Positions 1 through 37,050 of a DNA stretch of 37,050 nucleotides are shown piece after piece. The stretch is from a virus. The DNA is taken from IMG/VR virus record IMGVR_UViG_3300017613_000255, one strand, 5' to 3'. Both the position numbers and the translations under genes were made by a program. Below the pieces are notes generated by a model. It saw only the letters and a list, made by a program, of their open reading frames with translations. It was not told where the DNA came from and made no database searches. Position 1 is the stretch's first letter. Every line of letters starts with the position of its first letter.

Positions 1-121
1 TGTTTAGCAGTAAGGCGAGATTTAGATCTTGCAACATTGTTTGCTAGTTTTACACCGAATCAAGGTGATGCAAATGAGGACATTGTAGTTGCTGATCTTT
101 ATGCGGCATACAAGGAGTTAA
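1..121. repeat. Terminal direct duplication, copy 1 (identical to 36930..37050)
   Basis: Bases 1-121 (TGTTTAGCAGTAAGGCGAG...CAAGGAGTTAA) recur exactly as the last 121 bases. The repeat lies inside the capsid ORF, so it is most simply a circular-assembly overlap. Confidence 0.9.
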
Positions 122-522
122 GGGCAGGTATTGCACCTTTACCTTACAACTTGGTAGTTACACCAGGACAGTTCTGGGGAACAGTAGGTATCATCACATT
201 GATGGAAACTACATCAGGCAAGATTCAATCAGAAGCATTAGGTTCTGTCCAAGAGGACATTGCCCGAAATGGCTTCACAGGTAGGATACTTGGTTTCGAT
301 GTTTATATAGACAACAATGTGGCAGTATCATCTAACAATGCATCAGGTGCGGCTTTCTCAAGAGATGCAATTAAGTATGTTGAGAAGCAAGGCATCAAGA
401 TGGAAGTTGACAGAGTTATTGTTGGTGAGATTGGTGATCAAATCACAGGAACAGGTTTTTGGGGTGAAGCAATCCTCAGAAACAAACATGCCAATGAGAT
501 GCAATTTAATGAAATTACTTAA
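1..522 (+). CDS. Major capsid protein, C-terminal portion (continues from 36540..37050 across the circular junction)
   Basis: The frame of the listed ORF 37..522 is open back to base 1. It is in phase with the ATG at 36540 once the 121-nt duplication is collapsed. The joined product is about 303 aa and sits directly after the scaffold gene. Confidence 0.75.
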   Translation, partial: CLAVRRDLDLATLFASFTPNQGDANEDIVVADLYAAYKELRAGIAPLPYNLVVTPGQFWGTVGIITLMETTSGKIQSEALGSVQEDIARNGFTGRILGFDVYIDNNVAVSSNNASGAAFSRDAIKYVEKQGIKMEVDRVIVGEIGDQITGTGFWGEAILRNKHANEMQFNEIT

Positions 523-1058: not shown

Positions 1059-1422
1059 GAGTCAGAAGGGTGTTGCTGTATTTGGCAAGATCAAATGCCC
1101 AAGAAACTATGTGCTGAAAGAAGGGCATCAGCCATATAAACTCAAGCTGAATCCCCTTACAAAGCACCTTAACCAGAAACAAATTGACTACTACAATGCC
1201 AGATTCAATCTAAGGATGAGAAGGTGGCTTAGTGTCAAGGACAGGCATGGGAATAAGGTGCAGGACTTCAACAGTTACTATCAGCCATCAGTTTCAAAAG
1301 CATATGTGATTGAACATATCTATGATCCCAAGAATCCTATATGCAAGTATCAATGCAGAGGTAGATGCTTGAGGGAGTTAGGGTTTAGTGCCAATACAAA
1401 TACAATTAAGAGGTTAAAATGA
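1033..1422 (+). CDS. Hypothetical protein with C-terminal Cys cluster (CKYQCRGRC)
   Basis: GTG start 4 nt after TAGGGGGAAGC (GGGGGA SD). Its stop overlaps the next ATG as ATGA. Confidence 0.55.
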   Translation: MVLLKEWNESQKGVAVFGKIKCPRNYVLKEGHQPYKLKLNPLTKHLNQKQIDYYNARFNLRMRRWLSVKDRHGNKVQDFNSYYQPSVSKAYVIEHIYDPKNPICKYQCRGRCLRELGFSANTNTIKRLK

Positions 1423-3812
1423 GATTTAATGCTAGAGATTTCCTGGTTCAAACTATATTACCGATACTCATATCAATAGTAATGTTCATATTCCTAATGT
1501 GGTTGGCGGCAGTTGCTAATGCCCAAACATATCTGTGGATATATAGGCAGAGTGCCGATTGTGATGCTTTGACAGATGGGAAAGCAAGGCATCTCTGTTA
1601 TGACACTACATTAGATCAGTTCTATAAGTGTGTGCCTAGTGCCGGTGAGTGTGATACAGCAGGTGAGTGGGAAGCGGTTTCAGGTAATGCGATATTAGCT
1701 GATTCGGGTACTTTAACATTAGGGGGAACAAGTGGGAGTAATAACGAGAATCTAACATTGGATTTTGAATCAATATCAGATAAGGTAACAATTAATTCTG
1801 GAACAGATGTAGACACACTTGGCATTATTATAAACCCCACCGATGACTTTGAACAAAACTCTTTAAATTTATGGCATACTGAAACACACCAAAGTTCTAC
1901 AATCGCAATATCTGGAACAACACCTTATGCCGGAAGTTACGGTGTTAAAGCTGATGTAGTTCCTGATAGTGCAGGATTGACAGAGGTATTAGCCCATAGA
2001 CAATTTACAGATGAGATTGATTCTGTTACTATGGAAGCTATGGTTTATCTCGATGATGTAACATCAATAACAGTAATGCGATTAATAAACGCACAAAACA
2101 CAATAGGTGCTGGTGTTTTATCAAGCATACGGCTGAGAGATGACGGGGGGCAATTAAAAATCGGTGGTGCTTATACAAATGGTTCAGATACCTTAATAAC
2201 AAATCAAGACGAAACAAATGTAACTACTGGTACTTGGTATCATATAAAAATGAGTTATTATCGTCATCCCACAGATGGGTACTTTAAATGGTGGATTGCA
2301 GAAGGGGCAGACGCATTAACCTTAAAAACAAATTTTAGTGGTAATACTTATGGAACTTATGGAGTAAACAGAATATATTTTGGTGCTCAGAACAACCACC
2401 CAGACGATGTTACTATTTACTACGATAATGTAATTGCACCTCTTGAAATTGGAGAATTTAATAGACATGGGCTTACACTTGGAAGTGGAACTGGGGGTAG
2501 TCCGACACCACTTCCGTCTATAGTTTTTAATATTGATAATGGCACAGATGGGAACATATACTATAACGCAGGACAGGATGCTTTTATTTTTGACCGGAGT
2601 ACAAGAATAGGTTACGGGGGGAATACTGATTTTTATTTAATGTTTGATGCCACTACTAGCAACGGATTGCTTACTTGGATGGAAGATGAAATCGCATTAA
2701 GAAATGATGGCGATTTTATTTTGCAAGAAGAAGGAGATACTAGAGTTCCTGATGTGAGTGATACTGATCCACATCTAAGAGTGTATTCTGCCGATGAAGG
2801 TGTATCCACAGACTACATTGAGATGTATCATGACCAGACTGATGCACAGATTGTATCAGGAGCAGGAGATTTACAGTTTGATGCTCCAGAAGGGATAATA
2901 TATGATTCTGGATGGGGTTCTGTTGCTTTTCTACGGAATGGAACAGCAGGAGTTAATTTCTCCTATGATAACACTACTTTCTATCAGTTTATATGGCAGT
3001 TAAAAGATGAAACAGGAAATCAGTATGTTATAAGTCATTGGGGTGCAGGTAAAGACCACGACCATGCTACTCAGACTAATCCTACTCTCTATATACACTC
3101 TGACCTTGACCCAGATACATCCAATATTCAATATATGGGTCTTACCCACAATGGAGATGCAGATGATGTAGGAACTGGTGTTCTAGAGTCAGGCACTAAT
3201 TATATAAGTTTGATGAATGTAGGCGATGAAGCAGATGATGATAGGATACCCAACACTTCTGCAACTGATCCTACGTTAAGGATATACTCTGCTGATGATA
3301 CTAACGCTGATGACTACATCGAGATGTATCATGACCAACAAAATGCAGTTATTCAAACAGGTGTAGGTAGTGAATTGAAACTTAGTGTTAGTAATGCCGC
3401 TATATATCTTATGGATGAAGGAACAACAATGGTCAGGTGGAAAAGCGACAAGGATTTTATCCAGACAACATTTACACCACACGATAATGCCGGAAATCAT
3501 TTTATCATAGGTGATATAGCAGGTATAGACCAAGATTACGATCATCCATTGGCAACAGATCCCACCCTTTATGTTCAATCTGCTACTCCACCCAATACTG
3601 CTAATGATGAATGGATTTCTTTAACTCACAATGTTACTGATGGAGTGATTGATGTCGGGAGTGGAACAGTTAAGATTCTTGATGCCATAACACTTGTCGG
3701 AGCAAACAATAACTGTATTCTCACAGTAGATGATGACGGAACCTGTGATGCCGGAACTGAAATAGGTGAGGATAACTCAATAGCGATCTGTGCGGTATGT
3801 GCCGCTAACTAA
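1419..3812 (+). CDS. Large exported or membrane-anchored LamG/ConA-like lectin-fold protein with 2 x (A+B) C-terminal repeats; fibre or adhesin-like
   Basis: 797 aa. The N-terminus carries a 22-residue hydrophobic segment ending AVANA-Q. The stretch GTWYHIKMSYY...NRIYFGAQNN...IYYDNVI reads as a LamG-type jelly-roll. The motif DP(T/H)L-x-(I/V)-x-S...(Y/W)I-x-(M/L)-x-H(D/N) occurs four times. Confidence 0.7.
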   Translation: MRFNARDFLVQTILPILISIVMFIFLMWLAAVANAQTYLWIYRQSADCDALTDGKARHLCYDTTLDQFYKCVPSAGECDTAGEWEAVSGNAILADSGTLTLGGTSGSNNENLTLDFESISDKVTINSGTDVDTLGIIINPTDDFEQNSLNLWHTETHQSSTIAISGTTPYAGSYGVKADVVPDSAGLTEVLAHRQFTDEIDSVTMEAMVYLDDVTSITVMRLINAQNTIGAGVLSSIRLRDDGGQLKIGGAYTNGSDTLITNQDETNVTTGTWYHIKMSYYRHPTDGYFKWWIAEGADALTLKTNFSGNTYGTYGVNRIYFGAQNNHPDDVTIYYDNVIAPLEIGEFNRHGLTLGSGTGGSPTPLPSIVFNIDNGTDGNIYYNAGQDAFIFDRSTRIGYGGNTDFYLMFDATTSNGLLTWMEDEIALRNDGDFILQEEGDTRVPDVSDTDPHLRVYSADEGVSTDYIEMYHDQTDAQIVSGAGDLQFDAPEGIIYDSGWGSVAFLRNGTAGVNFSYDNTTFYQFIWQLKDETGNQYVISHWGAGKDHDHATQTNPTLYIHSDLDPDTSNIQYMGLTHNGDADDVGTGVLESGTNYISLMNVGDEADDDRIPNTSATDPTLRIYSADDTNADDYIEMYHDQQNAVIQTGVGSELKLSVSNAAIYLMDEGTTMVRWKSDKDFIQTTFTPHDNAGNHFIIGDIAGIDQDYDHPLATDPTLYVQSATPPNTANDEWISLTHNVTDGVIDVGSGTVKILDAITLVGANNNCILTVDDDGTCDAGTEIGEDNSIAICAVCAAN
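2739..3728 (+). repeat. In-frame degenerate tandem coding repeat (two units of about 165 aa: 2739..3239 and 3240..3728)
   Basis: Near-identical DNA cores TACATTGAGATGTATCATGACCAG (2817..2840) and TACATCGAGATGTATCATGACCAA (3315..3338). Peptides DPHLRVYSADEGVSTDYIEMYHDQ and DPTLRIYSADDTNADDYIEMYHDQ. B-type copies NPTLYIHSD...YMGLTHNGD and DPTLYVQSA...WISLTHNVT. Confidence 0.8.
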
Positions 3813-3823
3813 AAGGGGGAGAG

Positions 3824-4177
3824 ATGAAGAAACTATTACTAACATTAGCATTGTGCATTTTTTACACAGTTGCCTATGCGGCTGATGGCGACATCACAAA
3901 GGCAGAAGTTAAACCTGATGTGGCTGTGTGGAAACTTGATACAGTAAGGTTCTTGGTGTTCACCAAAACCTGTGAGGTTACTTACCGCAAGGTTGATTCT
4001 AATGGTGATCCTGTTGGGGGTAGTGTTACGGTGATTTTTATGAATGTTGCAGATGACCCTGACACACCTGAAGATGAAACATCTACAGAGTTTACACAGC
4101 TAGTAACTGCTATCAACAATGGCAGTAATATTAAAACCACTATTACAAATGCAGTAAAGATCAAACTTGGTATTTAA
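3824..4177 (+). CDS. Small secreted protein (Sec-type signal peptide)
   Basis: N-terminus MKKLLLTLALCIFYTVAYA-ADGD. SD AAAGGGGGAGAG lies before the ATG. Confidence 0.7.
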   Translation: MKKLLLTLALCIFYTVAYAADGDITKAEVKPDVAVWKLDTVRFLVFTKTCEVTYRKVDSNGDPVGGSVTVIFMNVADDPDTPEDETSTEFTQLVTAINNGSNIKTTITNAVKIKLGI

Positions 4178-4191
4178 TAGGGGGTGCAATA

Positions 4192-4743
4192 GTGAGTAAG
4201 AAACTATTACTTATGGCAATATGGATTATCTTAGTGATGTGTATAGGGTGTATTCCAGAACTGATGACTAAGGACTTGGATTTCAATACTGATTATGTGG
4301 CAGTAAAGGAAAGCACGATCACTAAGGTTAATTTCACTAAATCCCTGCAATACTTCCCCAACCCTGCAAGTTGGGTAGAGGGTGGCAAGGTATGGTTTAC
4401 CTCAGATGGGCAGTATGGCATTGAGGAATGGAGAGCATTCATTCAGGATCATAGTGGCAGTTTACCCCAACCTGTGCAGTATTATTCTAACGGTGTCAAG
4501 GTGAGTGCTGATAGATTCGCTAGTGCTGTGTCAAGCGGTGATGGTAGTGGTGCTTATTTTGCTGTGCAGTTGATGGATGTTCCTGAGTTTGAGAAAGCAT
4601 TAGATGATTGGCAGTCATGGCAGGGAAGTGCTAATTTTGAAGAAGTGCCTTGCCTTAACACAGATGGTGGTGATTATACATTCCCATGTGTGAGTGTAGC
4701 ATTGGGCAGAGATCATACTATTTGGCAATATCAACGGAAATAA
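4192..4743 (+). CDS. Exported protein, possible lipoprotein
   Basis: GTG start after GGGGGTGCAATA. N-terminus MSKKLLLMAIWIILVMCIGC has a hydrophobic core ending in Cys. The lipobox is not canonical. Confidence 0.65.
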   Translation: MSKKLLLMAIWIILVMCIGCIPELMTKDLDFNTDYVAVKESTITKVNFTKSLQYFPNPASWVEGGKVWFTSDGQYGIEEWRAFIQDHSGSLPQPVQYYSNGVKVSADRFASAVSSGDGSGAYFAVQLMDVPEFEKALDDWQSWQGSANFEEVPCLNTDGGDYTFPCVSVALGRDHTIWQYQRK

Positions 4744-4744
4744 T

Positions 4745-5494
4745 ATGGCTAGTCAATATATTGTTACGGATAGAACCACAGCACAGAATTATGCACTCAA
4801 GGTTGATGATGAACAGCTTTATTTTGAAGCAACTGCTGATACTGCAAGTGATGAGCCAATATTTGAAGATGATATAAATGCAGGAACTTACTATCAGTTA
4901 TTTATTGATGATGCTGAGTTAGCCATCATCTCTGTTTCAACACCCAGGGATGATATAGTATATGTTCTTGATCCAACACTAAACAAAGCGTATAGAGTAG
5001 TTGTCTTAGATGGGCAACTAGCAATTGTAGAATATACAGTTCCAGGTAAGGGGTATAAGGTTACCAGGTTTGTGATAACACCTCTTACTGTCAGGGTTAC
5101 ACCTACAAACAGGATTGCCAAGTTTCAGCAATCTGTCAGGGTAACAAAATCTAATATTAAAAGGGCAGTAGTTAATGCAAAGATACAGGTGCTAAAATTG
5201 TTTGGACTAGGTGGAGCAGGAACAGCAGGAACAGTTGCACTAGCAAGTGCAGATACTTGGTATCAAGTGCCACAATCAGGTAGTGTGCCGAAAAGTGATT
5301 ACACTCTAGTTGTAACTAAAGAAAATGAAGATGGAACAATAAGGTGGGCATTCAAGAACACATCTGTGCCAAGTGCTACTTATGGCAACAAATCACCTAC
5401 ACATTTATCAGTTGATTTAAAGGCAGATCAGTTTATTTATTGTGGTAGTGATAATGCAGGTGATGATGTGTGTTGGACAGCCAAAATAAAATGA
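4745..5494 (+). CDS. Hypothetical protein, beta-rich
   Basis: 249-aa ORF whose ATG lies 1 nt after the previous stop. No motif recognised. Confidence 0.65.
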   Translation: MASQYIVTDRTTAQNYALKVDDEQLYFEATADTASDEPIFEDDINAGTYYQLFIDDAELAIISVSTPRDDIVYVLDPTLNKAYRVVVLDGQLAIVEYTVPGKGYKVTRFVITPLTVRVTPTNRIAKFQQSVRVTKSNIKRAVVNAKIQVLKLFGLGGAGTAGTVALASADTWYQVPQSGSVPKSDYTLVVTKENEDGTIRWAFKNTSVPSATYGNKSPTHLSVDLKADQFIYCGSDNAGDDVCWTAKIK

Positions 5495-6042
5495 AACTAT
5501 CTGAGATTGTCAAAGAGTATAAAGATGGCAAGATCACTTGGTATGAGTATCTTGCAAAGAAATATCTTGTGGATGGGGATACAACTATATTTAAGAGTGT
5601 ATTGAGTAAATTAGCTGTTGATGTTCAAGACATAGCAATGCAGAGGATACATAGGAAGATAACAACTAAAGAGTTCCTGACAGAAGAAGCTCTTTTGGGT
5701 AAACAGGTTGAGAAGTTTCTATTTGATAACAAGATAGCTAATGATATGCCCAAAGATGTTGAGAGAACATCATACTTCTATCAACAAGCTAAGATGTTTG
5801 ATACATATAACCACACAACCGATGCTGATTGTTATGCTATGGATTATGAGGGTTCATTGATTACATTAAGTTGGTTGGATTATTATTTTAAGCAGTATAT
5901 ACCTGCCTTTGTAGGCAAACCAAGATTTGATATATATAGTGATGAGTTGAAAGGGCAGAAAGATGCATCAGCATCAAATGATAAGCCAACTATAAGTATT
6001 TCAGCGGCGGATATGCTGAAGTATACTAAGGATTTGCCATGA
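5491..6042 (+). CDS. Hypothetical protein
   Basis: The ATG at 5491 overlaps the previous stop (ATGA). The listed ORF 5470 is the same frame with a weaker upstream start. Confidence 0.6.
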   Translation: MKLSEIVKEYKDGKITWYEYLAKKYLVDGDTTIFKSVLSKLAVDVQDIAMQRIHRKITTKEFLTEEALLGKQVEKFLFDNKIANDMPKDVERTSYFYQQAKMFDTYNHTTDADCYAMDYEGSLITLSWLDYYFKQYIPAFVGKPRFDIYSDELKGQKDASASNDKPTISISAADMLKYTKDLP

Positions 6043-6251
6043 CAGTTGAGGAACACTTTGGATTGAGTGAGGAAGAAGCGTTTGGGTGTATATATGCAAC
6101 ACTAAAAACTATTGACCATTTCCTGGATAAGGGAATACACGATCCGAGAAGAATAGAGATGTTAAGGTCATATAAGGGTTTATTCAAAACATTGGATGCT
6201 ATTGAAGATGGACAGAGCCACCTTAGAGCAACATTGCATAAAAGTGATTAA
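6039..6251 (+). CDS. Hypothetical small helical protein
   Basis: 70-aa ORF with an ATGA overlap onto the previous stop. Confidence 0.5.
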   Translation: MTVEEHFGLSEEEAFGCIYATLKTIDHFLDKGIHDPRRIEMLRSYKGLFKTLDAIEDGQSHLRATLHKSD

Positions 6252-6546
6252 AGAAGAACTTATATGTATTAGGAAAAAATACGAAGGGCAGAATTTCTCT
6301 ACAAGTGTTATTACTGATGATGAGGTAACATTAGACACAAAGATTAACAGCACACCTTTTGTTGATTCATTAGATGCTCTTGCGATATGGATGGCCATAG
6401 AACTTCATTTTACGGATTATGGGTATACAGGTGGTGGGAAAGAAGATAGGTTATATTCAAAGATAGCCGGTGTAGGCACAGTAAGAGATGCAGTAGATTT
6501 AATAGAGAGATATTTACCAAATGGCGGCAGTAATAATCCACAATGA
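6196..6546 (+). CDS. Acyl/peptidyl carrier protein-like protein (start uncertain: 6196, 6208 or 6241)
   Basis: [18 protein letters not shown] matches the carrier-protein core [18 protein letters not shown]. The candidate phosphopantetheine Ser codon is at 6367..6369. Flanking helices ([27 protein letters not shown]) are in the ACP order. Confidence 0.5.
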   Translation: [116 protein letters not shown]

Positions 6547-7561
6547 CCTGGCTTCAAAAGAAATAACCGTTCCCTTAACCACAGGTGCGCAAACCATAGA
6601 TTTAAGTTCTTTGTTAGAGCATGACGATCCCAAGATAGTTGTTATTGTGGGAACGAATACAGTAACAGGTGTTATGGGTGTTTACCCTGTTGGCTCTTTA
6701 ATGGCATTTAAGACAAGAAATCATATTGCTAACAGCACAATGATTTCACCTAGTTCTTTGAATGGAAGCAACCAGGTTGTAATACATAAGACAGCGGCAA
6801 CACAGAAGTTCTATTTACATGCAGAGTTTGGTGGTGATAGCGTAACAGCACACTCTGATGGTGTGGCCTGTTCTTATACAGCGAACACATGGACAAAGAA
6901 CCTCTTGTCAGGTGGTGGTGATGGTGAGTTCGCTATTACAAGAACTCATTTCAATAATGGCGGCAATTGGGGTTGCAGATCGCTTAACAGCGTGAATCCT
7001 AATACAGCACAGCCGAACCAATCACATGATTGGGGTGTTGTTAAAGTTCAGAATGACGGAACGAATAATGTTTACTGGACATACCAAAACAGGTCAGGCA
7101 AGACACCTACTAGGCAGGTTTACATCTATGAGATGGGTTATATGTCATCTGATTGTGGATGGAATCACATGGAAGATGATGTCGATGAGGTGGTAACAAC
7201 TGTAGGGAGTTGGGATCAGGAAGGCATTACTGGAACATCCCTGGAAGGGAATGATAGTGCTGATGCAGATATAGCATTAATGCATATTGACAATGCCAAT
7301 TCTTCAAACAGGGATGCTTGGGTTAGAGAGATTAGTGGGAGTGAGGCAACTAAGAAGTTCCCTAACAATGCAGGTAGGAGAGTATTAGCAAGTATAACAG
7401 CAAGTGAGTATGAGTATTATATATCACATATAGATGTCAATAATTATGTGCAAGGGTTCTTTATAGCACCGGCTGTAACAGGGGTGGATGTATCTAATAT
7501 AAGTGGGTATTGCAGGTTGGAAGAACCAACAACATCAGATAGACTAAGAACTAAGGAGTAG
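6521..7561 (+). CDS. Hypothetical beta-rich protein, Gly/Asn/Thr-rich; possible structural or binding protein
   Basis: 346-aa ORF. No enzymatic motif recognised. Confidence 0.6.
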   Translation: MAAVIIHNDLASKEITVPLTTGAQTIDLSSLLEHDDPKIVVIVGTNTVTGVMGVYPVGSLMAFKTRNHIANSTMISPSSLNGSNQVVIHKTAATQKFYLHAEFGGDSVTAHSDGVACSYTANTWTKNLLSGGGDGEFAITRTHFNNGGNWGCRSLNSVNPNTAQPNQSHDWGVVKVQNDGTNNVYWTYQNRSGKTPTRQVYIYEMGYMSSDCGWNHMEDDVDEVVTTVGSWDQEGITGTSLEGNDSADADIALMHIDNANSSNRDAWVREISGSEATKKFPNNAGRRVLASITASEYEYYISHIDVNNYVQGFFIAPAVTGVDVSNISGYCRLEEPTTSDRLRTKE

Positions 7562-7563
7562 TT

Positions 7564-7815
7564 ATGCCTTTAAGAACAATAATGGCTGAAGCAATTAAGT
7601 TAATACCATCTGGAATTATTATTACTGCCCTTATATTTGGTGGCAAAGAGATTATTACTAATGATAGAAGAAATACAGATGAACATACTGAAATCAGGGC
7701 AGATAATCATGTAACAAAGGAGATAGTAACCAGGATTGATGCTAGGCAGGAAATGATGATAGAGAATGTAAAAGAACAGAAAGATACATTAAGAAGAATT
7801 GAACAGAAGTTATGA
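7564..7815 (+). CDS. Small membrane-anchored coiled-coil protein
   Basis: N-terminal TM segment (IKLIPSGIIITALIFGG) followed by a charged helix. SD AAGGAG lies before the ATG. Confidence 0.6.
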   Translation: MPLRTIMAEAIKLIPSGIIITALIFGGKEIITNDRRNTDEHTEIRADNHVTKEIVTRIDARQEMMIENVKEQKDTLRRIEQKL

Positions 7816-8051
7816 AACAAGCTGACTTCTTACATATGATTTCTAAATCTGTATATGAATTAAGTCAGATTGCCAAAGATGCCAGAGAGAACAACCAAGA
7901 ATTTAAGAGAGTTATATTGGAAAGAGAAAAGATAATCAATAAGTCATTAGAGCATTTAGAGCATGTATACAAGATGTTGGATTTGTCAGCTACATATTTT
8001 CCTGAAAAGGATAATGGTGAACAGATTTGCAAAAACGATATCTTCAAGTAG
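7812..8051 (+). CDS. Small coiled-coil protein
   Basis: ATGA overlap with the previous stop. 79 aa, helical and charged. Confidence 0.55.
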   Translation: MKQADFLHMISKSVYELSQIAKDARENNQEFKRVILEREKIINKSLEHLEHVYKMLDLSATYFPEKDNGEQICKNDIFK

Positions 8052-8218
8052 CAGAGCATGAATTGAATAACATCAAGACAATTCAACAGGTATTAAGGCA
8101 TCATATTGAGAAATTAGATAATAAGATCACAAATTTAGAAGCACTTATCAAGGGGGAGTATAATGAAACAGCAATTTCTGAAAGAGAAAACAGGCACAAT
8201 TCGCCTGACAGCATATGA
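8027..8218 (+). CDS. Small coiled-coil ORF in the -1 frame relative to 7812..8051 (weak TTG start; may be a frameshift extension)
   Basis: It fills an otherwise non-coding 112-nt gap. No convincing SD is present. It begins at CAAAAAC in the end of the previous ORF. Confidence 0.3.
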   Translation: MQKRYLQVAEHELNNIKTIQQVLRHHIEKLDNKITNLEALIKGEYNETAISERENRHNSPDSI

Positions 8219-9065
8219 GAATAATAGACCTCTAATACCTGCTGATAGTGTAAAAATCACTCTTTACAAGCCGGATGGTGCTACATTACAGGCCCAGGCA
8301 AGTGCTTCTAGGGATGCTACAACAGGAGAGATGACTTATTCAATTACAGCTACCCACACAGCTACAAAGGATCTGAATTACAAAGCCACTTGGGAATATA
8401 CCATTAGTGGTGAAACAAGGTATGAGGATCAGTTGTTTGATGTAGTCTTGAGTATTCTGTCAATACCTATTACAGATGATGATCTATACAATGAGTTGAA
8501 CTCATTGAGGAAAACTCAGATACAGGATACATCAACAGCAACAGCCGGTGCGGCAGGAACATTGACAGATACAGCACAGAGGAAAGAAGCAGATGATTAT
8601 TGGAATGGTGGCACAATTGAGATTATAGGTGGCACAGGGCCGAACCAGATGAGAGATATTACTGACTTTGTGCAGTCAACAGGTGTTATTTCAGTAACAC
8701 CTAACTGGGCAACTAATCCTGACAATACAAGCAGGTATAGGATTATAAGGTCTTGGAGTAAACAGATCACACAGAGTTTTGAGAAGATAGAAACTATGTT
8801 ACTCAATAAGGGCAAAAGGCATTCTTTGATCTTGGAGAGTAGCGAGATTAAAGTTCCGTTGATATACCTTACTGTGCATTTTATTTGTCTTGATTTGATG
8901 GATGAACCTGATGACAAGTGGCATATGCTAGGTAATAGGTATTGGGAACTGTTTAATGATGCATTTAATGGGATGAGATTACAGTATGATGAGGATGAGA
9001 GTGGGTTCATACAGGGTGATGAAGAAGGGTATGGTGCGGCACAGATACGGATAGGAAGGGCATGA
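8163..9065 (+). CDS. Putative virion structural protein (possible head-tail adaptor or neck protein with an N-terminal Ig-like beta-sandwich)
   Basis: SD AAGGGGGAG lies before the ATG. N-terminal pattern ITLYKPDGATL...TGEMTYSITATH...YKATWEY. Position at the start of the head-tail joining block. The family call is tentative. Confidence 0.35.
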   Translation: MKQQFLKEKTGTIRLTAYENNRPLIPADSVKITLYKPDGATLQAQASASRDATTGEMTYSITATHTATKDLNYKATWEYTISGETRYEDQLFDVVLSILSIPITDDDLYNELNSLRKTQIQDTSTATAGAAGTLTDTAQRKEADDYWNGGTIEIIGGTGPNQMRDITDFVQSTGVISVTPNWATNPDNTSRYRIIRSWSKQITQSFEKIETMLLNKGKRHSLILESSEIKVPLIYLTVHFICLDLMDEPDDKWHMLGNRYWELFNDAFNGMRLQYDEDESGFIQGDEEGYGAAQIRIGRA

Positions 9066-9805
9066 GGTTATCTGTTAATATCCTTAATTGGAACTGCAAG
9101 AATGTTCTTAAAGATACCCTTGAGGTTTTAGAAACCGAGTGCTTTGACAATGACTTTGAGGTTATTGTGGTGGACAATGGCTCAAAGGATGGCAGTATAG
9201 AGTTCTTGAAGGGAAAGCAGAAGGTGTGGGTAAATGACAATCTTCACATCATCAGTAACAGAAAAAATCTTGGAATTTCTAAGGGGAAGAATCAGGGTAT
9301 TGAGAAATCTATTGGTGATTATGTTCTTTTACTTGATGCTGATGTGTTACCTGTAAAGAATAGCATCTTTATGCTGATGGATTACTTGGATCACCATGAT
9401 GAGTGCCAAACAATAGGGTTCAAACCTAACAAGTGGCAGAACCAAAAGAATACTGAGCATTGTAAGTTCCATGAAGATTACTGCCACACATTGTTTGAGC
9501 CAAGAACACAGAAAGCGGCTTGTTTGTTCTATGGGATGTATAGAAGATGGCTGTTTGATATGGGGTTGAGGTTGAGGGAAGATGGTGTGTTTGGTGAGGT
9601 AGGGTATGGATGGGAAGATCATGATTTTTACTTGACTATGAAAGAGATGGGGGTAGACCAATGGGTTGCCCACATGAACAAAGCCAATGGAAGATATTAC
9701 CATGCTATCAACTCATCTATTAACAACTATGGGTGTATGGGAAAGAATAAGTATCAGGAAACATCAAAGGCAAGAGGGATTGCATTTCACAAATCATGGG
9801 ATTAG
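9062..9805 (+). CDS. Family 2 (GT-A) glycosyltransferase
   Basis: Motifs LSVNILNWNC...FEVIVVDNGSKDGS...NLGISKGKNQG...YVLLLDADV (DxD). ATGA overlap with the upstream structural gene. Confidence 0.8.
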   Translation: MRLSVNILNWNCKNVLKDTLEVLETECFDNDFEVIVVDNGSKDGSIEFLKGKQKVWVNDNLHIISNRKNLGISKGKNQGIEKSIGDYVLLLDADVLPVKNSIFMLMDYLDHHDECQTIGFKPNKWQNQKNTEHCKFHEDYCHTLFEPRTQKAACLFYGMYRRWLFDMGLRLREDGVFGEVGYGWEDHDFYLTMKEMGVDQWVAHMNKANGRYYHAINSSINNYGCMGKNKYQETSKARGIAFHKSWD

Positions 9806-25086: not shown

Positions 25087-25911
25087 ATGAGAGATAAAAT
25101 TAAGGTTAGTTTGATAGCATCAAGTGTAAGACCCCAATTATATGAAGATTTCTTTAAATCTCTAAAAGGCACAAGTGTTGAATATGAGGTTGTGTTTGTG
25201 GGTAATATTGATTTAAGGAATCCTGCGTTAAAGGAGCAAATTGAGTGTGAGGTGTATTGCGAGTATAGTAAAGAAACAATTTATTTTGGTAATCATTGGA
25301 AGTATATCAGGACAAAGAATATAAAACCTGCCCAATGTTACGAGATCGCAAGAAGAAATGCTGTTGGAGAAACCATTGTGTGGGTTGCCGATGATTGTGA
25401 GTTTCCTAATGATGTGATAGGCAAGGCATACACATATTGGAAGGCATCCAAGAATAATAAGTTGATTTTATCCATCCAAACCAAAGAGTCAGGGTATAAC
25501 TTACCACAAGGGCAGTTCTTTGATATGACAAAGCACCGGCTTCATGCTTACAAAATGGAAACACCCTTGATGGCTCCGCTTGGTATGATGAGCAGGAAAT
25601 TCTTAGATGAGTTGGGTGGGTTTGACAAGCGTTTCGTGTGTGGACAATATGAGAACCAAGTTGTGGTGAGAGCCATGAAGAAGGGTGGATATGTTGTGAT
25701 TTTTGGTGGTGAGAAATGTTATGTAGATATTGACCATCTTGGCAAATCACTCAGGATCAGTGAATCTGTCAATGAAAAAGATTTCTTAAATAGACCTTTT
25801 GCCAAAGGGTATCAGAAAGACAGGGAAATCCTGATGCTTGAAGATTTCCAACCTTATGAGGATAAGGATATATTGACTAAATCACAGTCGCATAAAGGGG
25901 TGTGGGATTGA
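25087..25911 (+). CDS. GT-A / family 2-like glycosyltransferase
   Basis: KVSLIASSVRPQLYEDFFKSL...YEVVFVGN...IVWVADDCEF...LGGFDKRF. Confidence 0.65.
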   Translation: MRDKIKVSLIASSVRPQLYEDFFKSLKGTSVEYEVVFVGNIDLRNPALKEQIECEVYCEYSKETIYFGNHWKYIRTKNIKPAQCYEIARRNAVGETIVWVADDCEFPNDVIGKAYTYWKASKNNKLILSIQTKESGYNLPQGQFFDMTKHRLHAYKMETPLMAPLGMMSRKFLDELGGFDKRFVCGQYENQVVVRAMKKGGYVVIFGGEKCYVDIDHLGKSLRISESVNEKDFLNRPFAKGYQKDREILMLEDFQPYEDKDILTKSQSHKGVWD

Positions 25912-25912
25912 A

Positions 25913-26056
25913 ATGGAGAATTTAGTGAAATATTTTATGGTTTTTCTTATTGCATATTCTTTGATTGAGATTTTTGTTTTTGGTAATTCGTATTTAATAT
26001 TTTTATTATCATATTGCAGTTTTGTATTTTATGCAGAGTGGATACATGATAAGTAA
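25913..26056 (+). CDS. Possible 47-aa two-TM hydrophobic peptide, not in the supplied track
   Basis: MENLVKYFMVFLIAYSLIEIFVFGNSYLIFLLSYCSFVFYAEWIHDK. It fills the AT-rich gap between two island genes. The SD is weak. Confidence 0.3.
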   Translation: MENLVKYFMVFLIAYSLIEIFVFGNSYLIFLLSYCSFVFYAEWIHDK

Positions 26057-27023
26057 TATTTTAATCACAGGTATAACAGGATCAGGTGGTTCTTACCTTG
26101 CCGATTACATCTTAGAAAACCATCCTGACATTGGTGTGCATGGCATCTGCCGGTGGCACAGCACATCAAGGTTGGATAACATTGAACATATTAAAGATAA
26201 CATTCACATCCATGAGTGTGATCTTTTGGATGTATCATCCATAATCAGAGTATTACAAGTTGTGAAACCATATCGCATATTCCACTTAGCGGCTTATGCC
26301 AATGTAAAGAAATGCTTTGACACTCCACTTGCAGTTGTAAATAACAATATCATGGGAACAGCGAACCTACTTGAAGCAATCCGTTTATCTTGCCCTGATG
26401 CGATTGTTCAAATATGTTCGACATCTGAGGTCTATGGCAATCCTAAAACTGTTCCCATGTATGAAGATCATCCACTTCAACCTGTGAATCCGTATTCTGT
26501 TTCCAAGTTAGCACAGGAGAAGTTGGCTTACGCATATCACCAGAGTTGGGGGTTGAATGTTATCATCACAAGGATGTTTGCTTATATCAACCCAAGAAGG
26601 CATGATTTATTTGCCACAGCATTTGCTAGGCAGGTGGCAAGAATGGAACATTATTTTGGTGGTAGGGTTATTAAGCATGGTAATCTTTCATCAGTAAGAA
26701 CCTTGATTGATGTGAGGGATGCGATGAGATCATATTGGTTAGCTTGTGATTGGTGTGTTCCTGGTGAAGCATATAATATTGGTGGGAAAGAGGTATTATC
26801 AGTCGGAACTTTCCTCACAAAGTTGATAGAACACGCATCAACAAATATGATTCCTGTTTTAGATAAGGGTTTGTTAAGACCTATTGATGTAACCAACCAA
26901 GTAGCCAATACTGAGAAGTTTGATAAACTCACAGGGTTTAAACCAAAATACACACTTGATGAAAGCATTGAGTTTTTACTAGAGCATTGTAGGAAGGAGA
27001 TCAATGAAACTAGATACAAATAA
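26046..27023 (+). CDS. Extended SDR nucleotide-sugar enzyme, GDP-mannose 4,6-dehydratase / GDP-4-keto-6-deoxymannose reductase (Rmd)-like (alternative start 26031)
   Basis: ILITGITGSGGSYLADYILE (Rossmann fold), CSTSEVYG, NPYSVSKLAQE (YxxxK), FARQVARME...GNLSSVRTLIDVRDAMRSY resembles the Rmd sequence as I recall it. Confidence 0.75.
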   Translation: MISNILITGITGSGGSYLADYILENHPDIGVHGICRWHSTSRLDNIEHIKDNIHIHECDLLDVSSIIRVLQVVKPYRIFHLAAYANVKKCFDTPLAVVNNNIMGTANLLEAIRLSCPDAIVQICSTSEVYGNPKTVPMYEDHPLQPVNPYSVSKLAQEKLAYAYHQSWGLNVIITRMFAYINPRRHDLFATAFARQVARMEHYFGGRVIKHGNLSSVRTLIDVRDAMRSYWLACDWCVPGEAYNIGGKEVLSVGTFLTKLIEHASTNMIPVLDKGLLRPIDVTNQVANTEKFDKLTGFKPKYTLDESIEFLLEHCRKEINETRYK

Positions 27024-27693
27024 ACCTGTTTTTATTTTAGCACATGGAACATCTATCACAGAGTTGGAATCATGGATCGACCAATATAAGGATTTAGATG
27101 TTTACTGGGCATCATTCAACTATTTTATGACTACAGAAGAAATACTGAATCTGGTGGGGTTGCATACTAACATCCTATATGTTTACTGTCAGCTAGGATA
27201 TAAGATCAACAAGGAGTATTTCCTAAATTACTTTAATAGTGGTGATGATAGGGTAGCTATAATCAATAATATTGTTCACATTATGAACATTTTTCCGTCA
27301 TTAAAAGAGTCCTACAAGACAAAGATGCTTGTGTGGAATACTAATGTTAATGGTGGAACATTGATGAACTTCATGGTTACTCTGATGCAGATAGGGTTCA
27401 AGCGACTTTGCTTGTTTGGTGTAGATGGGTATGGTGATGGAGTGAGAACTCATTATAAACAATCCTATAGAGCAAAACGATTCCCTGTAGTTTTTAATAA
27501 CATCACTATTAATTTAAGTAATTATTATGATGTATTAAATATGCTGTGGACAGATACAAAGAAACTGAATAATATTGGTGGTTATTATCTTAAAGAATAT
27601 AAGAATGTAGAGATTAATAATTGTAATCCTGAAAGTTTGGTTACTTGTTTTGATAAGATTAAATACAACCAAGTCAAGGAGATTTATCAATGA
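27004..27693 (+). CDS. Cst-II (GT42)-like or DUF115-like glycosyltransferase
   Basis: VFILAHGTSITELE, DLDVYWASFNYF and GGTLMNFMVTLMQIGFKRLCLFGVDGY parallel the Campylobacter Cst-II segments VIIAGNGPSLKEID, DFDVFRCNQFYF and TSGVYMCAVAIALGYKEIYLSGIDFY. Confidence 0.5.
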   Translation: MKLDTNKPVFILAHGTSITELESWIDQYKDLDVYWASFNYFMTTEEILNLVGLHTNILYVYCQLGYKINKEYFLNYFNSGDDRVAIINNIVHIMNIFPSLKESYKTKMLVWNTNVNGGTLMNFMVTLMQIGFKRLCLFGVDGYGDGVRTHYKQSYRAKRFPVVFNNITINLSNYYDVLNMLWTDTKKLNNIGGYYLKEYKNVEINNCNPESLVTCFDKIKYNQVKEIYQ

Positions 27694-28466
27694 AGTTATC
27701 TGTCCTAGTGCCTGGCATCAGAACCAAGAATTGGAGAAAACTCTATGATTCAGTTATAGAATCATTTAGTGGCAGTTGGGAGATGGTGATTATATCTCCC
27801 TATAAACTGCCGGATGAATTAAAGGGCAACCAGAATATCAAGATTATTGAGGATTGGGGTTCGCCTATGAGATGTCAGCAGAGAGGTTTAACACAGGCAG
27901 AGGGTGATTATGTTACATGGGCGGCTGATGATGGGGTTTACTTGCCTGGTATGCTTGACAAATCCTTTGAGTATCTTGATCGCTGTGAATATGGATGTGA
28001 TGATGCTAAGTTGGTTATGGGTAAATATACTGAAGGTGATGGCAACACAGGGCACATGATGAATGGGGATTATTATATTCTCAACAACCACAATGCTTCA
28101 AATTGTTGGTTCGTGCCTGACAACACATGGATGCTGAATGTTGGTGTAGTGCCTACAAAACTGCTTATGGAAGTTGGTGGGTGGGATTGTCAGTTTGAGG
28201 TTTGTCCTATGGCATATAATGACCTTGCTATCAGGTTGCAAAGACATGGTGTAAGATTTATTATCCAAGATGAGATTATGTATAAATGCACACATCTGCC
28301 AGGACATGAAGGGGATCATGCACCTATCCATGATGCTATGATTGAACATGATATGCCTTTGTTTAAGGAGATTTATGACAAGATAGAGAGCAGGGAGAGG
28401 ATATTTATTGAGTGGGATAATTGGGAGCAATCACCTGAGAGATGGGTTAGGAGATTTGGGGAGTGA
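27690..28466 (+). CDS. GT-A / family 2-like glycosyltransferase (paralogue-like of 25087..25911)
   Basis: LSVLVPGIRTKNWRKLYDSV...WEMVIISP...YVTWAADDGVY...VGGWDCQFE. Confidence 0.65.
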   Translation: MKLSVLVPGIRTKNWRKLYDSVIESFSGSWEMVIISPYKLPDELKGNQNIKIIEDWGSPMRCQQRGLTQAEGDYVTWAADDGVYLPGMLDKSFEYLDRCEYGCDDAKLVMGKYTEGDGNTGHMMNGDYYILNNHNASNCWFVPDNTWMLNVGVVPTKLLMEVGGWDCQFEVCPMAYNDLAIRLQRHGVRFIIQDEIMYKCTHLPGHEGDHAPIHDAMIEHDMPLFKEIYDKIESRERIFIEWDNWEQSPERWVRRFGE

Positions 28467-29335
28467 AAACATCAGGGTATTTTGATGTCCACAGATATGA
28501 GATAGCTTGTAAATACAACACACCTTTTAGGGTTGTGCCGGTTGGTGATATTCATTATGACTCACCAAACTTTGCTGATGCCAGATGGCAACATTTCTGT
28601 GAAACTGAGATGGCTTGTAAGATACCGTCATTCTATTTTCTCATGGGAGATTATATAGATTTTGCATCATCATCTGAAAGGCACATTATCAGGGGTGGGA
28701 ACTTGCATTACTCATCACTAACAACACAAGAGAAGTGGTGCAAGAGTGCAATCAAGAAACTTGTGAAGGATGCACCATTCTTAAAAGGCAGAACAATAGC
28801 TGTTCTTAATGGCAACCATTACCTAGATTTTATGGATGGCACAAACTCAGATCAATACCTGGCAGGGTTGTTGGAAACTAAATACTTAGGGGTTGCAGGG
28901 TTTGTCCGGCTGTTGATTAAAAGAGATGCAACACACTCATTGAAGTATGATATGTTCGCACATCATGGAAAGACAGGTGCAAGTAAGGCATCATCAATAA
29001 GGGCGGTCAATAATCTTATACTATCACATCAGGCAGATTGTTATTTAATGGGCCATAACCATGACATCACAGCAGGGAAAGTTGATCGCCTTTATTTATC
29101 TGACTCAAGGAATGTTGATACTCTCAAGGTTAAGAACCGGCAGATTGCTTTAGTCAGGACAGGTTCTTTCTTAAAAACATGGCAACCAGGCAAGGTCAGC
29201 TATGGGGTGGACAGGTGCTATGTTCCTGCAACTATTGGTATCAGCTATCTCACAATAGTTCCCAAGAGAACATCTTATATGTTAGGCAAAAGAAGGTTGG
29301 AAGAACTGACTATTGAGGTGGATATTACAATATGA
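28463..29335 (+). CDS. Calcineurin-like metallophosphoesterase
   Basis: All five motifs are present in order: GDIHYD, MGDYIDF, NGNHY, HHGKTG, MGHNHD. GTG start overlaps the previous stop (GTGA). Confidence 0.8.
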   Translation: MKTSGYFDVHRYEIACKYNTPFRVVPVGDIHYDSPNFADARWQHFCETEMACKIPSFYFLMGDYIDFASSSERHIIRGGNLHYSSLTTQEKWCKSAIKKLVKDAPFLKGRTIAVLNGNHYLDFMDGTNSDQYLAGLLETKYLGVAGFVRLLIKRDATHSLKYDMFAHHGKTGASKASSIRAVNNLILSHQADCYLMGHNHDITAGKVDRLYLSDSRNVDTLKVKNRQIALVRTGSFLKTWQPGKVSYGVDRCYVPATIGISYLTIVPKRTSYMLGKRRLEELTIEVDITI

Positions 29336-30114
29336 ACATTCTTTCATTTGGTGGTGGTGTGCAAACAGTAGCTATGGCATTGATGTGTATTAATGGGGAT
29401 TTGCCTATGCCTGATTATTCTGTTTTCTCCGATCCTGGGTGGGAGTTAGAAGATACCTATAAATACCTGAGTTGGTTTATTCCTTACTGTGAGGATAAGG
29501 GTATGAGGTTCAGGGTTGTTGAGAATGGAAACATCAAGAAAGATGCTTTGAATAGAGATAGAAAGTGGGTAACAATGCCGCTATTCACAAAGGATGAGAA
29601 TGACAAGGCAGGGATGTTAATGCGACAATGCACAAATGATTATAAGATTATACCTGTGTATAAAATGGTGAGAAAGTTGTTAGGTTTGAAACCATATCAG
29701 AGAACAAAAGAACCTGCAAATGTTTGGCTAGGGATTTCCATTGATGAAGCCACTAGGATGAAACCTAGCAGGGTGGGGTATGCCATTAACATATATCCAT
29801 TGATTGAGAATAACATCAGCAGGGCAAAGTGCATTACATATATACAAACAATGGGATTTCACTTACCACCTAAATCTGCTTGTGTTGGATGCCCATATCA
29901 TAGTGATATGTTTTGGCAATCATTAAAGACAGGTTATCCATTAGAGTTTAGTGATGCTGTTGATTTTGATATTAAGATAAGACACAACTCAAGGAAAGGC
30001 ATTAAATCACCAATGTATTTACATAGGAGTTGCCAACCACTAGAGGATGTTGATTTCACTCAAGGGCAGATGGATTTGTTTCAGGAAGAATGTGAGGGGT
30101 ATTGTGGCTTGTGA
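29332..30114 (+). CDS. PAPS reductase / adenine-nucleotide alpha-hydrolase-like protein with a C-terminal Cys cluster
   Basis: ILSFGGGVQTVAM (PP-loop variant), RQCTNDYKIIPV, SACVGCPYHSD, ECEGYCG. Confidence 0.65.
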   Translation: MNILSFGGGVQTVAMALMCINGDLPMPDYSVFSDPGWELEDTYKYLSWFIPYCEDKGMRFRVVENGNIKKDALNRDRKWVTMPLFTKDENDKAGMLMRQCTNDYKIIPVYKMVRKLLGLKPYQRTKEPANVWLGISIDEATRMKPSRVGYAINIYPLIENNISRAKCITYIQTMGFHLPPKSACVGCPYHSDMFWQSLKTGYPLEFSDAVDFDIKIRHNSRKGIKSPMYLHRSCQPLEDVDFTQGQMDLFQEECEGYCGL

Positions 30115-30186
30115 TGAGTGCAAGAGGTTGCAGTATTGGTTTGAGATATTTAAGGATGTTCAATGTTGGTTAGTTAAACAGGGGTT

Positions 30187-31263: not shown

Positions 31264-31276
31264 TGTGAAAAAATAC

Positions 31277-31306
31277 TTGACATAAACTAATATATATGCT
31301 TATAAT
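31277..31306 (+). promoter_or_regulatory. Sigma70-type promoter P3 (TTGACA, 18 nt, TATAAT)
   Basis: Both hexamers are perfect consensus. The inverted repeat CTTATAA-T-TTATAAG (31299..31313) overlaps the -10. Confidence 0.7.
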
Positions 31307-36539: not shown

Positions 36540-37050
36540 ATGAATTGGTTTTTAAGATTGATCCAAAAGTTACAAAGCAATAAGGGTATGGCAAATGAAA
36601 CTACTACAACAACTATGGAAGAAGCTATCCCTACAGTTGTTGAAGCATGTTTACTTGAATTGGATGATGGAGATATTATCAAGCCATTGGTTAGGAATGT
36701 AGCATTCCCTGGCCCTGGTATTGTGCATGATACTCCGTTCATTACAAGATTGACCTCTGAAACAGACAGCAACTTAGCTAACCAGGCACTTGACACAAGT
36801 GGTAGTGATGAAACATCACCTAGCCAAGCAACAGTCGGTGCTCATGGTGCGACTGTGTTGCTCAAGCCATTAGCTGTTATGGGTTCTGTTAGTGATCTAG
36901 CAGTTGCGGCAGGTCAGTTAATCGGACAATGTTTAGCAGTAAGGCGAGATTTAGATCTTGCAACATTGTTTGCTAGTTTTACACCGAATCAAGGTGATGC
37001 AAATGAGGACATTGTAGTTGCTGATCTTTATGCGGCATACAAGGAGTTAA
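36540..37050 (+). CDS. Major capsid protein, N-terminal portion (runs off the window end and continues at 122..522)
   Basis: ATG after AAAGGAG with no stop to the end of the window. It is in phase with 37..522 through the duplicated 121 nt. Confidence 0.75.
   Translation, partial: MNWFLRLIQKLQSNKGMANETTTTTMEEAIPTVVEACLLELDDGDIIKPLVRNVAFPGPGIVHDTPFITRLTSETDSNLANQALDTSGSDETSPSQATVGAHGATVLLKPLAVMGSVSDLAVAAGQLIGQCLAVRRDLDLATLFASFTPNQGDANEDIVVADLYAAYKEL
36930..37050. repeat. Terminal direct duplication, copy 2 (identical to 1..121)
   Basis: Exact 121-nt match read directly. Confidence 0.9.

What the first reader, a model, noticed from the sequence alone, without database searches (positions are those of the whole stretch)
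6196..6546. Acyl/peptidyl carrier protein-like gene in a phage morphogenesis region
The product aligns by eye with E. coli ACP over the whole four-helix layout. [14 protein letters not shown] pairs with [46 protein letters not shown] pairs with [46 protein letters not shown] pairs with TTVQAAIDYI. The DSL(D) phosphopantetheine-attachment serine is conserved, with its codon at 6367..6369. I see no clear phosphopantetheinyl transferase, adenylation, acyltransferase or ketosynthase partner in the genome. Any carrier function would have to use host enzymes or the unrecognised neighbours. A carrier protein co-expressed with virion proteins and several glycosyltransferases raises the possibility of acylation or another group transfer onto a virion or envelope target.
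Basis: partly seen in the sequence, partly recalled or inferred. Interest (0 to 1): 0.65.

Follow-up and report, generated by a model that had tools for sequence, protein, structure and literature searches.

The report
Divergent orphan ACP-like phage gene
A small phage gene really does resemble a bacterial acyl carrier protein along its whole length, including the serine that would carry the cofactor, but the match is too weak to call it a family member, it has no relatives or partner enzymes, and stand-alone carrier-protein genes are already known in phages.

Summary
The ACP likeness is beyond chance but below threshold. ACP models are the top hits in NCBIfam (E 0.014 and 0.023) and PHROGs (E 0.01), at about 15 bits against cut-offs of about 70. 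Pfam PP-binding gives no hit. My own viral-ACP HMM ranks this ORF first of 345 genome ORFs (E 6.5e-5), and 0 of 20,000 shuffles reach its score. hhalign gives 80% probability over 76 columns, against a maximum of 3.2% for 640 control ORFs. Ser58 sits in a DSLD motif at the start of predicted helix II. AlphaFold was low-confidence (pLDDT 51) and Foldseek found nothing, so the fold is unconfirmed. The protein has no homologue among 1.8 billion representative proteins. It lies in a ~6.8 kb hypervariable cargo segment (1419..8218) of the late operon that five related phages fill with unrelated genes. No PPTase, adenylation, acyltransferase or ketosynthase gene is present. That is also normal for canonical phage ACPs. 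Best reading: a very divergent, solitary ACP-like protein that depends on host enzymes. Virion acylation is unsupported speculation. Interest is modest.

The parts
6196..6546 (+). ACP-like ORF, 116 aa, pI 4.9. The alternative start ATG 6208 (M5) would give an ACP-typical N-terminus.
   Evidence: coding frame; ACP likeness
6367..6369 (+). TCA codon of Ser58 in D57-S58-L59-D60. It aligns with Ser36 of E. coli ACP, the phosphopantetheine attachment site.
6217..6267 (+). Residues 8-24, aligned to ACP helix I ([17 protein letters not shown] against [17 protein letters not shown]).
   Evidence: AF2 helix 7-28
6268..6312 (+). 15-residue insertion (residues 25-39) in the helix I to helix II loop, relative to ACP.
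6313..6411 (+). Residues 40-72, the core match to ACP loop I plus helix II (DDEVT...[16 protein letters not shown]). This stretch gives most of the profile score.
6412..6477 (+). Residues 73-94, the linker with predicted short helix III (83-90). It is about 9 residues longer than in ACP.
6478..6516 (+). Residues 95-107, [13 protein letters not shown], aligned to ACP helix IV (TVQAAIDYINGH).
   Evidence: AF2 helix 96-105
6039..6251 (+). Upstream 70-aa ORF. It overlaps the ACP-like ORF by 56 nt in another frame, has a good SD sequence, and its start overlaps the stop of the preceding gene (ATGA).
1419..8218 (+). Hypervariable cargo segment of the late operon that contains the ACP-like gene. None of its 11 ORFs has a homologue in five related phages.
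8163..9805 (+). Conserved downstream flank: a 300-aa protein plus a family-2 glycosyltransferase, present in all five relatives.

Best explanation
ORF 6196..6546 encodes a very divergent, stand-alone protein of the acyl-carrier-protein kind. It would be a small acidic four-helix protein with the cofactor-bearing serine (Ser58, motif DSLD) at the N-terminus of helix II, and with two lineage-specific loop insertions. It is a lineage-specific cargo gene, sitting in a hypervariable slot of the late operon of a 36.9 kb siphovirus-like phage. It is not part of the conserved virion module. The proposed mechanism is inferred and not shown. The host's AcpS-type phosphopantetheinyl transferase would load 4'-phosphopantetheine onto Ser58. 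The holo-protein would then exchange an acyl or similar group with host ACP-dependent enzymes, or with unrecognised products of the same cassette. This is what is assumed for the other solitary phage ACP genes. Shown here: a real gene, a statistically non-random and co-linear ACP likeness, the serine in register, no partner enzymes in cis, and no homologues. Inferred: the fold, the modification and the carrier function.
For: ACP models are the top hits in two independent libraries (phrog_5934, E 0.01; NF002148, E 0.014, covering query 40-104 against profile 20-75 of 79; TIGR00517, E 0.023). My own viral-ACP HMM ranks this ORF first of 345 genome ORFs, at E 6.5e-5. None of 20,000 shuffles reaches its score, and 9,052 ORFs of related loci reach at most 12.8 bits against 17.2. 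hhalign gives 80.4% probability, P 1.3e-5, over 76 columns spanning all four helices. Controls reach at most 12% for neighbouring small ORFs and at most 3.2% for 640 random ORFs. AF2 helices coincide with ACP helices I-IV, and Ser58 immediately precedes H59-73. In the hhalign alignment, hydrophobic core positions are matched by hydrophobic residues: L10, C14, V17, I18, L22, V44, I50, L59, L62, I64, W65, I68, F72, V96, A99, V100, I103. The pI is 4.9. From established knowledge of AcpS-ACP recognition, the equivalents of D35, L37, D38, M44 and E47 are kept (D57, L59, D60, M66, E69). Solitary ACP genes are the norm in phages (PMC11705849; PMC8224337).
Against: Scores of about 15 bits are far below the curated cut-offs of 70-71 bits. 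Pfam PP-binding is not reported even at E<=10. phmmer against PDB finds no carrier protein. The AF2 model is low-confidence (pLDDT 51) and Foldseek finds no ACP in PDB or BFVD. There is no homologue in 5.8 billion or 1.84 billion protein sets, so conservation of Ser58 cannot be tested. The usually conserved Gly at -3 of the serine is Phe, and the E41 and E48 equivalents are Ala and Leu. Library-wide E values near 0.01, taken over about 60 genes of the window, are individually only marginal. The RBS is poor and the ORF overlaps the upstream ORF by 56 nt.
Confidence: 0.42

Rival explanations
1. The resemblance is chance or convergence. The ORF would encode an unrelated small acidic helical orphan protein of the variable cassette, for example an assembly or adaptor factor for the neighbouring beta-rich, surface-protein-like products, or a moron. 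It would have no carrier function.
For: All family scores are sub-threshold, and there is no structural match. The 'G-T-x-x-D-A-x-D-L-I-E' type helix cap is generic: the same C-terminal stretch also matches an unrelated 29-aa helical repeat in P0002 at 53% identity. The gene is in a segment where every ORF is an orphan. There are no partners in cis.
Against: The match is co-linear over 76 columns and all four helices, not a single motif. Empirical nulls never come close: 20,000 shuffles, 9,052 ORFs and 640 hhalign controls. ACP is the top family in two libraries.
Confidence: 0.3
2. It is a true ACP-fold derivative that no longer acts as a carrier. It would work as a protein-binding module or decoy that engages host ACP-dependent enzymes (fatty-acid, lipid A or other ACP clients), or as a structural subunit, with or without the cofactor.
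For: The ACP-likeness evidence is the same as for the best explanation. Divergence is strong: Gly-3 is lost, two acidic helix II positions are lost, and there are two insertions. No dedicated partner is present. A phage ACP has been predicted to bind host FabZ (bioRxiv 10.64898/2026.03.01.708874). From established knowledge, apo-ACP and ACP have non-carrier partners in E. coli, such as MukB and SpoT.
Against: The DSLD motif and the hydrophobic core are retained, which fits a modifiable carrier. No host or interaction data exist.
Confidence: 0.22
3. The gene model is wrong. The ORF would be either non-coding or the 3' part of a longer product fused to ORF 6039..6251, through an assembly indel or a +1 frameshift.
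For: The overlap with the upstream ORF is 56 nt, there is no clear SD before 6196 or 6208, and both frames score equally in the overlap. The N-terminus of the upstream ORF is faintly like the end of ACP helix II and helix III (P 0.0024, 12%).
Against: The frame of 6196 is clearly the coding one from 6252 to 6520. ACP helix I aligns with residues 8-24, inside the overlap, which supports translation from 6196 or 6208. An in-frame stop lies at 6163..6165. The frameshift would have to be +1, the rarer programmed direction (established knowledge).
Confidence: 0.04

Closest known systems
Bacterial type II acyl carrier protein AcpP (NCBIfam NF002148 / TIGR00517; Pfam PF00550 PP-binding)
   Same: The similarity is co-linear over helices I-IV. 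The DSLD motif has its serine at the start of helix II. The MA.E..F pattern of helix II and the TV..A.D.I pattern of helix IV are present. The protein is acidic.
   Different: Scores are about 15 bits against cut-offs of about 70 bits, and there is no Pfam hit. The protein is 116 aa against about 78, with a 15-aa insertion in loop I and about 9 extra residues before helix IV. Gly-3 is replaced by Phe. There is no fab-gene context and no detectable homologues.
Solitary phage-encoded ACPs annotated as auxiliary metabolic genes (PHROG 5934; e.g. Alteromonas phage R22Y gp30, PMC11705849; roseobacter prophages, PMC8224337; Ralstonia phage phiRSL1)
   Same: It is a stand-alone small carrier-like gene in a phage genome with no PPTase or synthase gene next to it. 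Canonical viral ACP loci likewise show no FAS or PPTase family among the 25 commonest flanking families, and some lie next to neck or tail genes.
   Different: Those proteins are 40-76% identical to E. coli AcpP and pass family thresholds. This one does not, and it matches PHROG 5934 only over residues 41-72 at E 0.01.
Dedicated, divergent carrier proteins of glycan and lipid modification pathways (e.g. DltC, NodF, AcpXL; named from established knowledge, not tested here)
   Same: It is a divergent stand-alone carrier in a genome that also carries glycosyltransferases and an NDP-sugar dehydratase.
   Different: Those systems always include a recognisable ligase, acyltransferase or synthase partner. 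None is found here. The sugar cluster is about 19 kb away, and the nearby GT2 belongs to the conserved flank, not to the cassette.

Membership tests
Acyl carrier protein / PP-binding superfamily | Match to a curated family profile at or above its cut-off | tested here: not met
   NF002148 scores 15.3 bits against a cut-off of 71, and TIGR00517 scores 14.6 against 70.45. Pfam PF00550 is not reported at E<=10. ACP is nevertheless the top-ranked family in both NCBIfam and PHROGs.
Acyl carrier protein / PP-binding superfamily | Conserved serine in a (D)S(L) motif at the N-terminus of helix II | tested here: met
   D57-S58-L59-D60 aligns with D35-S36-L37-D38 of ACP. The predicted helix starts at residue 59.
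Acyl carrier protein / PP-binding superfamily | Compact four-helix bundle fold of about 80 residues | tested here: inconclusive
   Four predicted helices sit at the ACP-equivalent positions. The model has pLDDT 51 and pTM 0.42, and Foldseek finds no ACP in PDB or BFVD. No alignment depth is available.
Acyl carrier protein / PP-binding superfamily | Acidic recognition surface of helix II for AcpS and partner enzymes | tested here: inconclusive
   The pI is 4.9. The D35, D38 and E47 equivalents are kept (D57, D60, E69), but the E41 and E48 equivalents are Ala63 and Leu70, and Gly33 is Phe55 (alignment).
Acyl carrier protein / PP-binding superfamily | 4'-phosphopantetheinylation of the serine | not testable with these tools
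   This needs intact-mass MS of the expressed protein with and without a PPTase.
Solitary phage ACP (PHROG 5934) | Significant full-length match to the PHROG profile | tested here: inconclusive
   E 0.01 and 17 bits, covering only residues 41-72 against profile positions 31-62 of 93.
Carrier-protein-dependent biosynthetic cassette (ACP plus PPTase, adenylating enzyme, KS or AT) | A recognisable partner enzyme encoded nearby or elsewhere in the genome | tested here: not met
   Pfam scans of 48 ORFs found no ACPS, AMP-binding, ketoacyl-synt, Acyl_transf or thioesterase hit. No PPTase motif-3-like pattern occurs in any six-frame ORF.

The most novel reading that the evidence does not exclude
The ACP-like protein is a phage-specific carrier. 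Loaded by a host PPTase, it would deliver an acyl or aminoacyl group to one of the surface-type proteins or glycans specified by the same hypervariable late-operon cassette, with the conserved GT2 just downstream. That would be covalent acylation of a virion or virion-glycan component, a modification not described for tailed phages.
Probability: 0.05. Interest if true: 0.75.

Novelty: new variant of a known kind. Interest (0 to 1): 0.3.

Why it matters
If the protein is a working carrier, it would show that phages maintain carrier proteins far outside the AcpP sequence space that current profiles recognise. Such genes would be missed by standard annotation. It would also place a carrier protein in a hypervariable head-proximal cargo slot instead of a metabolic module. 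That would invite a test of whether phage particles or their glycans can be acylated. As it stands, it is one orphan gene with a plausible but unproven fold assignment. Its practical value is as a candidate for a cheap experiment: expression followed by intact-mass MS.

Tried and rejected
- **Direct homologue searches.** The word-indexed search of 5.8 billion proteins found only the protein itself. Exhaustive phmmer over 1.84 billion representatives found only itself plus P0002.
- **P0002.** I rejected it as a relative. It is a 505-aa protein with eight copies of a 29-aa helical repeat (LAGVGTREAMDLRERLL). Each copy matches query 79-114 at no more than 30.8 bits, which is chance level for that database. 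The E of 3e-8 comes from summing eight near-identical repeats. P0002 has no Pfam family.
- **tblastn against 50,697 phage genomes.** Only hits at E>=2.
- **Structure.** phmmer against PDB found no carrier. Single-sequence AF2 gave pLDDT 51. Foldseek against PDB and BFVD found nothing. This is uninformative rather than negative.
- **AF2 of the upstream 183-aa neighbour (5491..6039)**, run to look for a PPTase- or acyltransferase-like fold. It gave pLDDT 46 and was unusable, so I did not fold-search it.
- **Synteny.** The adjacent 346-aa protein is also an orphan. The tail-tube anchor gave 391 homologues and five close genome contexts plus 37 more distant genome loci. None carries a homologue of the query or any ACP-like ORF.
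- **Metagenome DNA-pattern scan with the query itself.** Nothing.
- **Tandem or split ACP.** The upstream 70-aa ORF, alone or joined to the C-terminus of ORF 5470, reaches only 7-12% hhalign probability. Not significant.
- **Programmed frameshift fusion of 6039 and 6196.** Considered unlikely: it would need +1, and there is an in-frame stop at 6163.
- **Host identification.** No tRNAs. The nearest genome-collection relative is only 44% identical, on a 36.5 kb contig binned to a Treponemataceae MAG. More distant prophage relatives are mostly in Proteobacteria. The host remains unknown.

Full report
**1. The observation**

The window is a complete phage genome. Bases 1-121 repeat at 36930-37050, so the unit genome is 36,929 bp. 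All genes read on the + strand.

I trained a codon-usage log-likelihood on 11 long genes of this genome. Over 6252..6520 it is positive only in this ORF's frame: +0.325 per codon, against -0.002 to -0.79 for the other five frames. It is therefore a real gene.

The start is uncertain. ATG 6196 and ATG 6208 both lack a clear Shine-Dalgarno sequence, and the ORF overlaps the upstream 70-aa ORF (6039..6251) by 56 nt.

**2. Is the ACP likeness more than chance?**

Curated libraries:
- Pfam gives no PP-binding hit.
- PHROGs puts the 'acyl carrier protein' family phrog_5934 first (E 0.01, residues 41-72).
- NCBIfam puts two AcpP models first: NF002148 (E 0.014, residues 40-104 against profile 20-75 of 79) and TIGR00517 (E 0.023). 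Both score about 15 bits against cut-offs of about 70.
- phmmer against PDB finds no carrier protein.

Family-specific tests. I collected 42 viral ACP loci from IMG/VR and built an HMM from 28 distinct viral ACPs plus E. coli AcpP.
- An unfiltered hmmsearch against all 345 six-frame ORFs of at least 40 aa in the genome ranks this ORF first (17.2 bits, E 6.5e-5). The runner-up is at E 0.13.
- None of 20,000 shuffles of the query reaches its score (17.7 bits; best shuffle 13.6).
- Among 9,052 six-frame ORFs from 42 related phage and prophage loci, the best score is 12.8 bits, from a serine-less 56-aa fragment.
- hhalign of the query against the ACP alignment gives 80.4% probability and P 1.3e-5.
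- Eight neighbouring small ORFs give at most 12%. 640 random 70-200-aa ORFs from related loci give at most 3.2%.
- Pairwise BLASTP against E. coli ACP gives 21.6 bits and E 8e-4, over the DSLD to helix II core only.

The resemblance is real, co-linear and statistically non-random. It is still weak in absolute terms and does not meet any curated family threshold.

**3. Anatomy**

In the hhalign register:
- Helix I is residues 8-24.
- A 15-residue insertion (25-39) follows.
- Residues 40-72 carry 'DDEVT...[16 protein letters not shown]', with Ser58 aligned to the ACP phosphopantetheine serine.
- The linker is about 9 residues longer than in ACP and contains a short predicted helix.
- '[13 protein letters not shown]' aligns to helix IV.

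Single-sequence AlphaFold2 predicts helices 7-28, 59-73, 83-90 and 96-105, one for each ACP helix, with Ser58 at the N-cap of helix II. Confidence is low (pLDDT 51, pTM 0.42). Foldseek finds nothing at E<=0.001 in PDB or BFVD. The fold is neither confirmed nor fairly refuted.

The protein is acidic (pI 4.9). Several helix II positions known to matter for AcpS recognition are retained (D57, L59, D60, M66, E69). The Gly usually found three residues before the serine is Phe55, and two acidic positions are lost (A63, L70).

**4. Relatives and context**

The protein has no homologue. Only itself turns up in the 5.8-billion-protein search. The exhaustive 1.84-billion-representative search adds only P0002. 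I reject P0002 as a relative because the match is a short helical motif repeated eight times.

The downstream 346-aa protein is also an orphan. The phage itself is not isolated, however. Its tail tube protein has 391 homologues.

The genome map from Pfam and PHROGs is as follows:

| Coordinates | Gene or product |
|---|---|
| 32864 | TerL |
| 34172 | portal |
| 35718 | scaffold |
| about 36588, across the junction, to 519 | major capsid protein |
| 603, 1033 | two small basic proteins |
| 1419..8218 | block of ORFs with no significant family match, apart from the marginal ACP hits of ORF 6196 |
| 8163..9065 | 300-aa protein |
| 9062..9805 | GT2 |
| next four genes | connector-sized proteins |
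| 11488 | tail tube |
| 13033 | tape measure |
| 15294 | Dit |

I fetched five related genomes (tail tube 48-74% identical) and compared them by BLASTP.
- The post-capsid small proteins (found in two of the five relatives), and everything from the 300-aa protein onward, are conserved (26-74% identity).
- None of the 11 ORFs between 1419 and 8218, including the ACP-like gene, has a counterpart.
- In that slot the relatives carry unrelated genes: large repetitive Ser/Pro-rich proteins or a protein with a Laminin_G_3 domain, plus small membrane proteins.

The gene is therefore in the late operon, with tightly packed, often overlapping genes. It sits in a lineage-specific hypervariable cargo slot, not in the conserved morphogenesis core.

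**5. Partners**

Pfam scans of 48 ORFs found no PPTase, adenylating enzyme, ketosynthase, acyltransferase or thioesterase. No PPTase motif-3-like pattern occurs in any frame. AlphaFold of the upstream 183-aa protein was unusable (pLDDT 46).

The absence of partners is not distinctive. I examined 102 ORFs flanking 32 canonical viral ACP genes. The commonest families were phage neck, tail, nuclease and ligase proteins, and no fatty-acid-synthesis or PPTase family was among the top 25. The literature describes solitary phage ACPs as presumed auxiliary metabolic genes that rely on the host (PMC11705849; PMC8224337). One has been predicted to bind host FabZ (bioRxiv 10.64898/2026.03.01.708874).

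**6. Interpretation**

Best explanation (about 0.4): a very divergent solitary carrier protein of the ACP kind. It would be loaded by the host PPTase on Ser58 and work with host ACP clients or with unrecognised cassette products. I put the probability of ACP-type ancestry or fold at about 0.65 overall. That figure includes the variant in which the protein has become a non-carrier binding module or decoy (about 0.2).

The main rival (about 0.3) is a chance or convergent resemblance in an unrelated helical orphan protein. A wrong gene model is unlikely (about 0.04).

I keep it as the most novel reading not excluded (about 0.05).

**7. Comparison and novelty**

The protein looks like AcpP-type carrier proteins and like solitary phage ACPs. 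Formal membership fails the profile-threshold test and cannot be tested for fold or modification. I classify it as a new, highly divergent variant of a known kind. Interest is modest (0.3). Phage ACP genes are known, and nothing here shows function. A simple expression and mass-spectrometry experiment would settle it.

Noticed in passing
window 1-121 and 36930-37050; about 36588..37050 joined to 122..519: A 121-nt terminal direct repeat shows the window is a complete circular or terminally redundant 36,929-bp genome. The major capsid protein gene (phrog_267) is split across the window ends, so ORF 37..522 is only its C-terminal part.
   Followed up: yes
window 8163-9805; L045, L046, L048, L049, L050: A 300-aa protein and a family-2 glycosyltransferase form a conserved pair inside the head-tail module of this phage and all five relatives examined (50-64% and 45-60% identity). 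A structural-module GT hints at virion glycosylation.
   Followed up: partly
window 25087-32478: A sugar and DNA-modification cluster. It holds two weak GT2-like genes, an NDP-sugar 4,6-dehydratase/epimerase (26022..27023, E 5e-65), a metallophosphoesterase and a PAPS-reductase-like protein (phrog_424, E 2.5e-45). These are followed by a C5 cytosine methylase fragment and a ParB-N6/N4 methylase. Relatives carry radical-SAM plus GT2 genes at a comparable position.
   Followed up: no
window 1419-3812 (repeat at 2811-2866 and 3312-3367): A 797-aa, very acidic (pI 4.1) orphan protein with an internal repeat spaced 501 nt apart. Relatives have different large repetitive proteins in this slot: Ser/Pro-rich proteins, or a protein with a Laminin_G_3 domain. 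This suggests a swappable surface or decoration protein.
   Followed up: partly
window 3824-4177 and 4192-4743: Two adjacent orphan ORFs begin with signal-peptide-like N-termini (MKKLLLTLALCIFYTVAYA...; MSKKLLLMAIWIILVMCIGC...). They may be secreted or lipoprotein morons inside the late operon.
   Followed up: no
window 6039-6251: The 70-aa ORF that overlaps the ACP-like gene begins MTVEEHFGLSEEEA. This faintly resembles the end of ACP helix II plus helix III (hhalign P 0.0024, probability 12%) and is not significant.
   Followed up: yes
P0002 (505 aa, metagenomic) against window 6430-6537: An unrelated protein with eight tandem 29-aa helical repeats (LAGVGTREAMDLRERLL) matches the C-terminal third of the ACP-like protein at up to 53% identity. 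The repeat family has no Pfam assignment.
   Followed up: yes
L001-L042 (IMG/VR loci with canonical ACP genes): Canonical viral ACP genes are mostly solitary. In four loci they lie next to T4-type neck and tail-sheath-stabiliser genes, and in two next to NifU/Fe-S assembly genes. None lies next to fab genes.
   Followed up: partly
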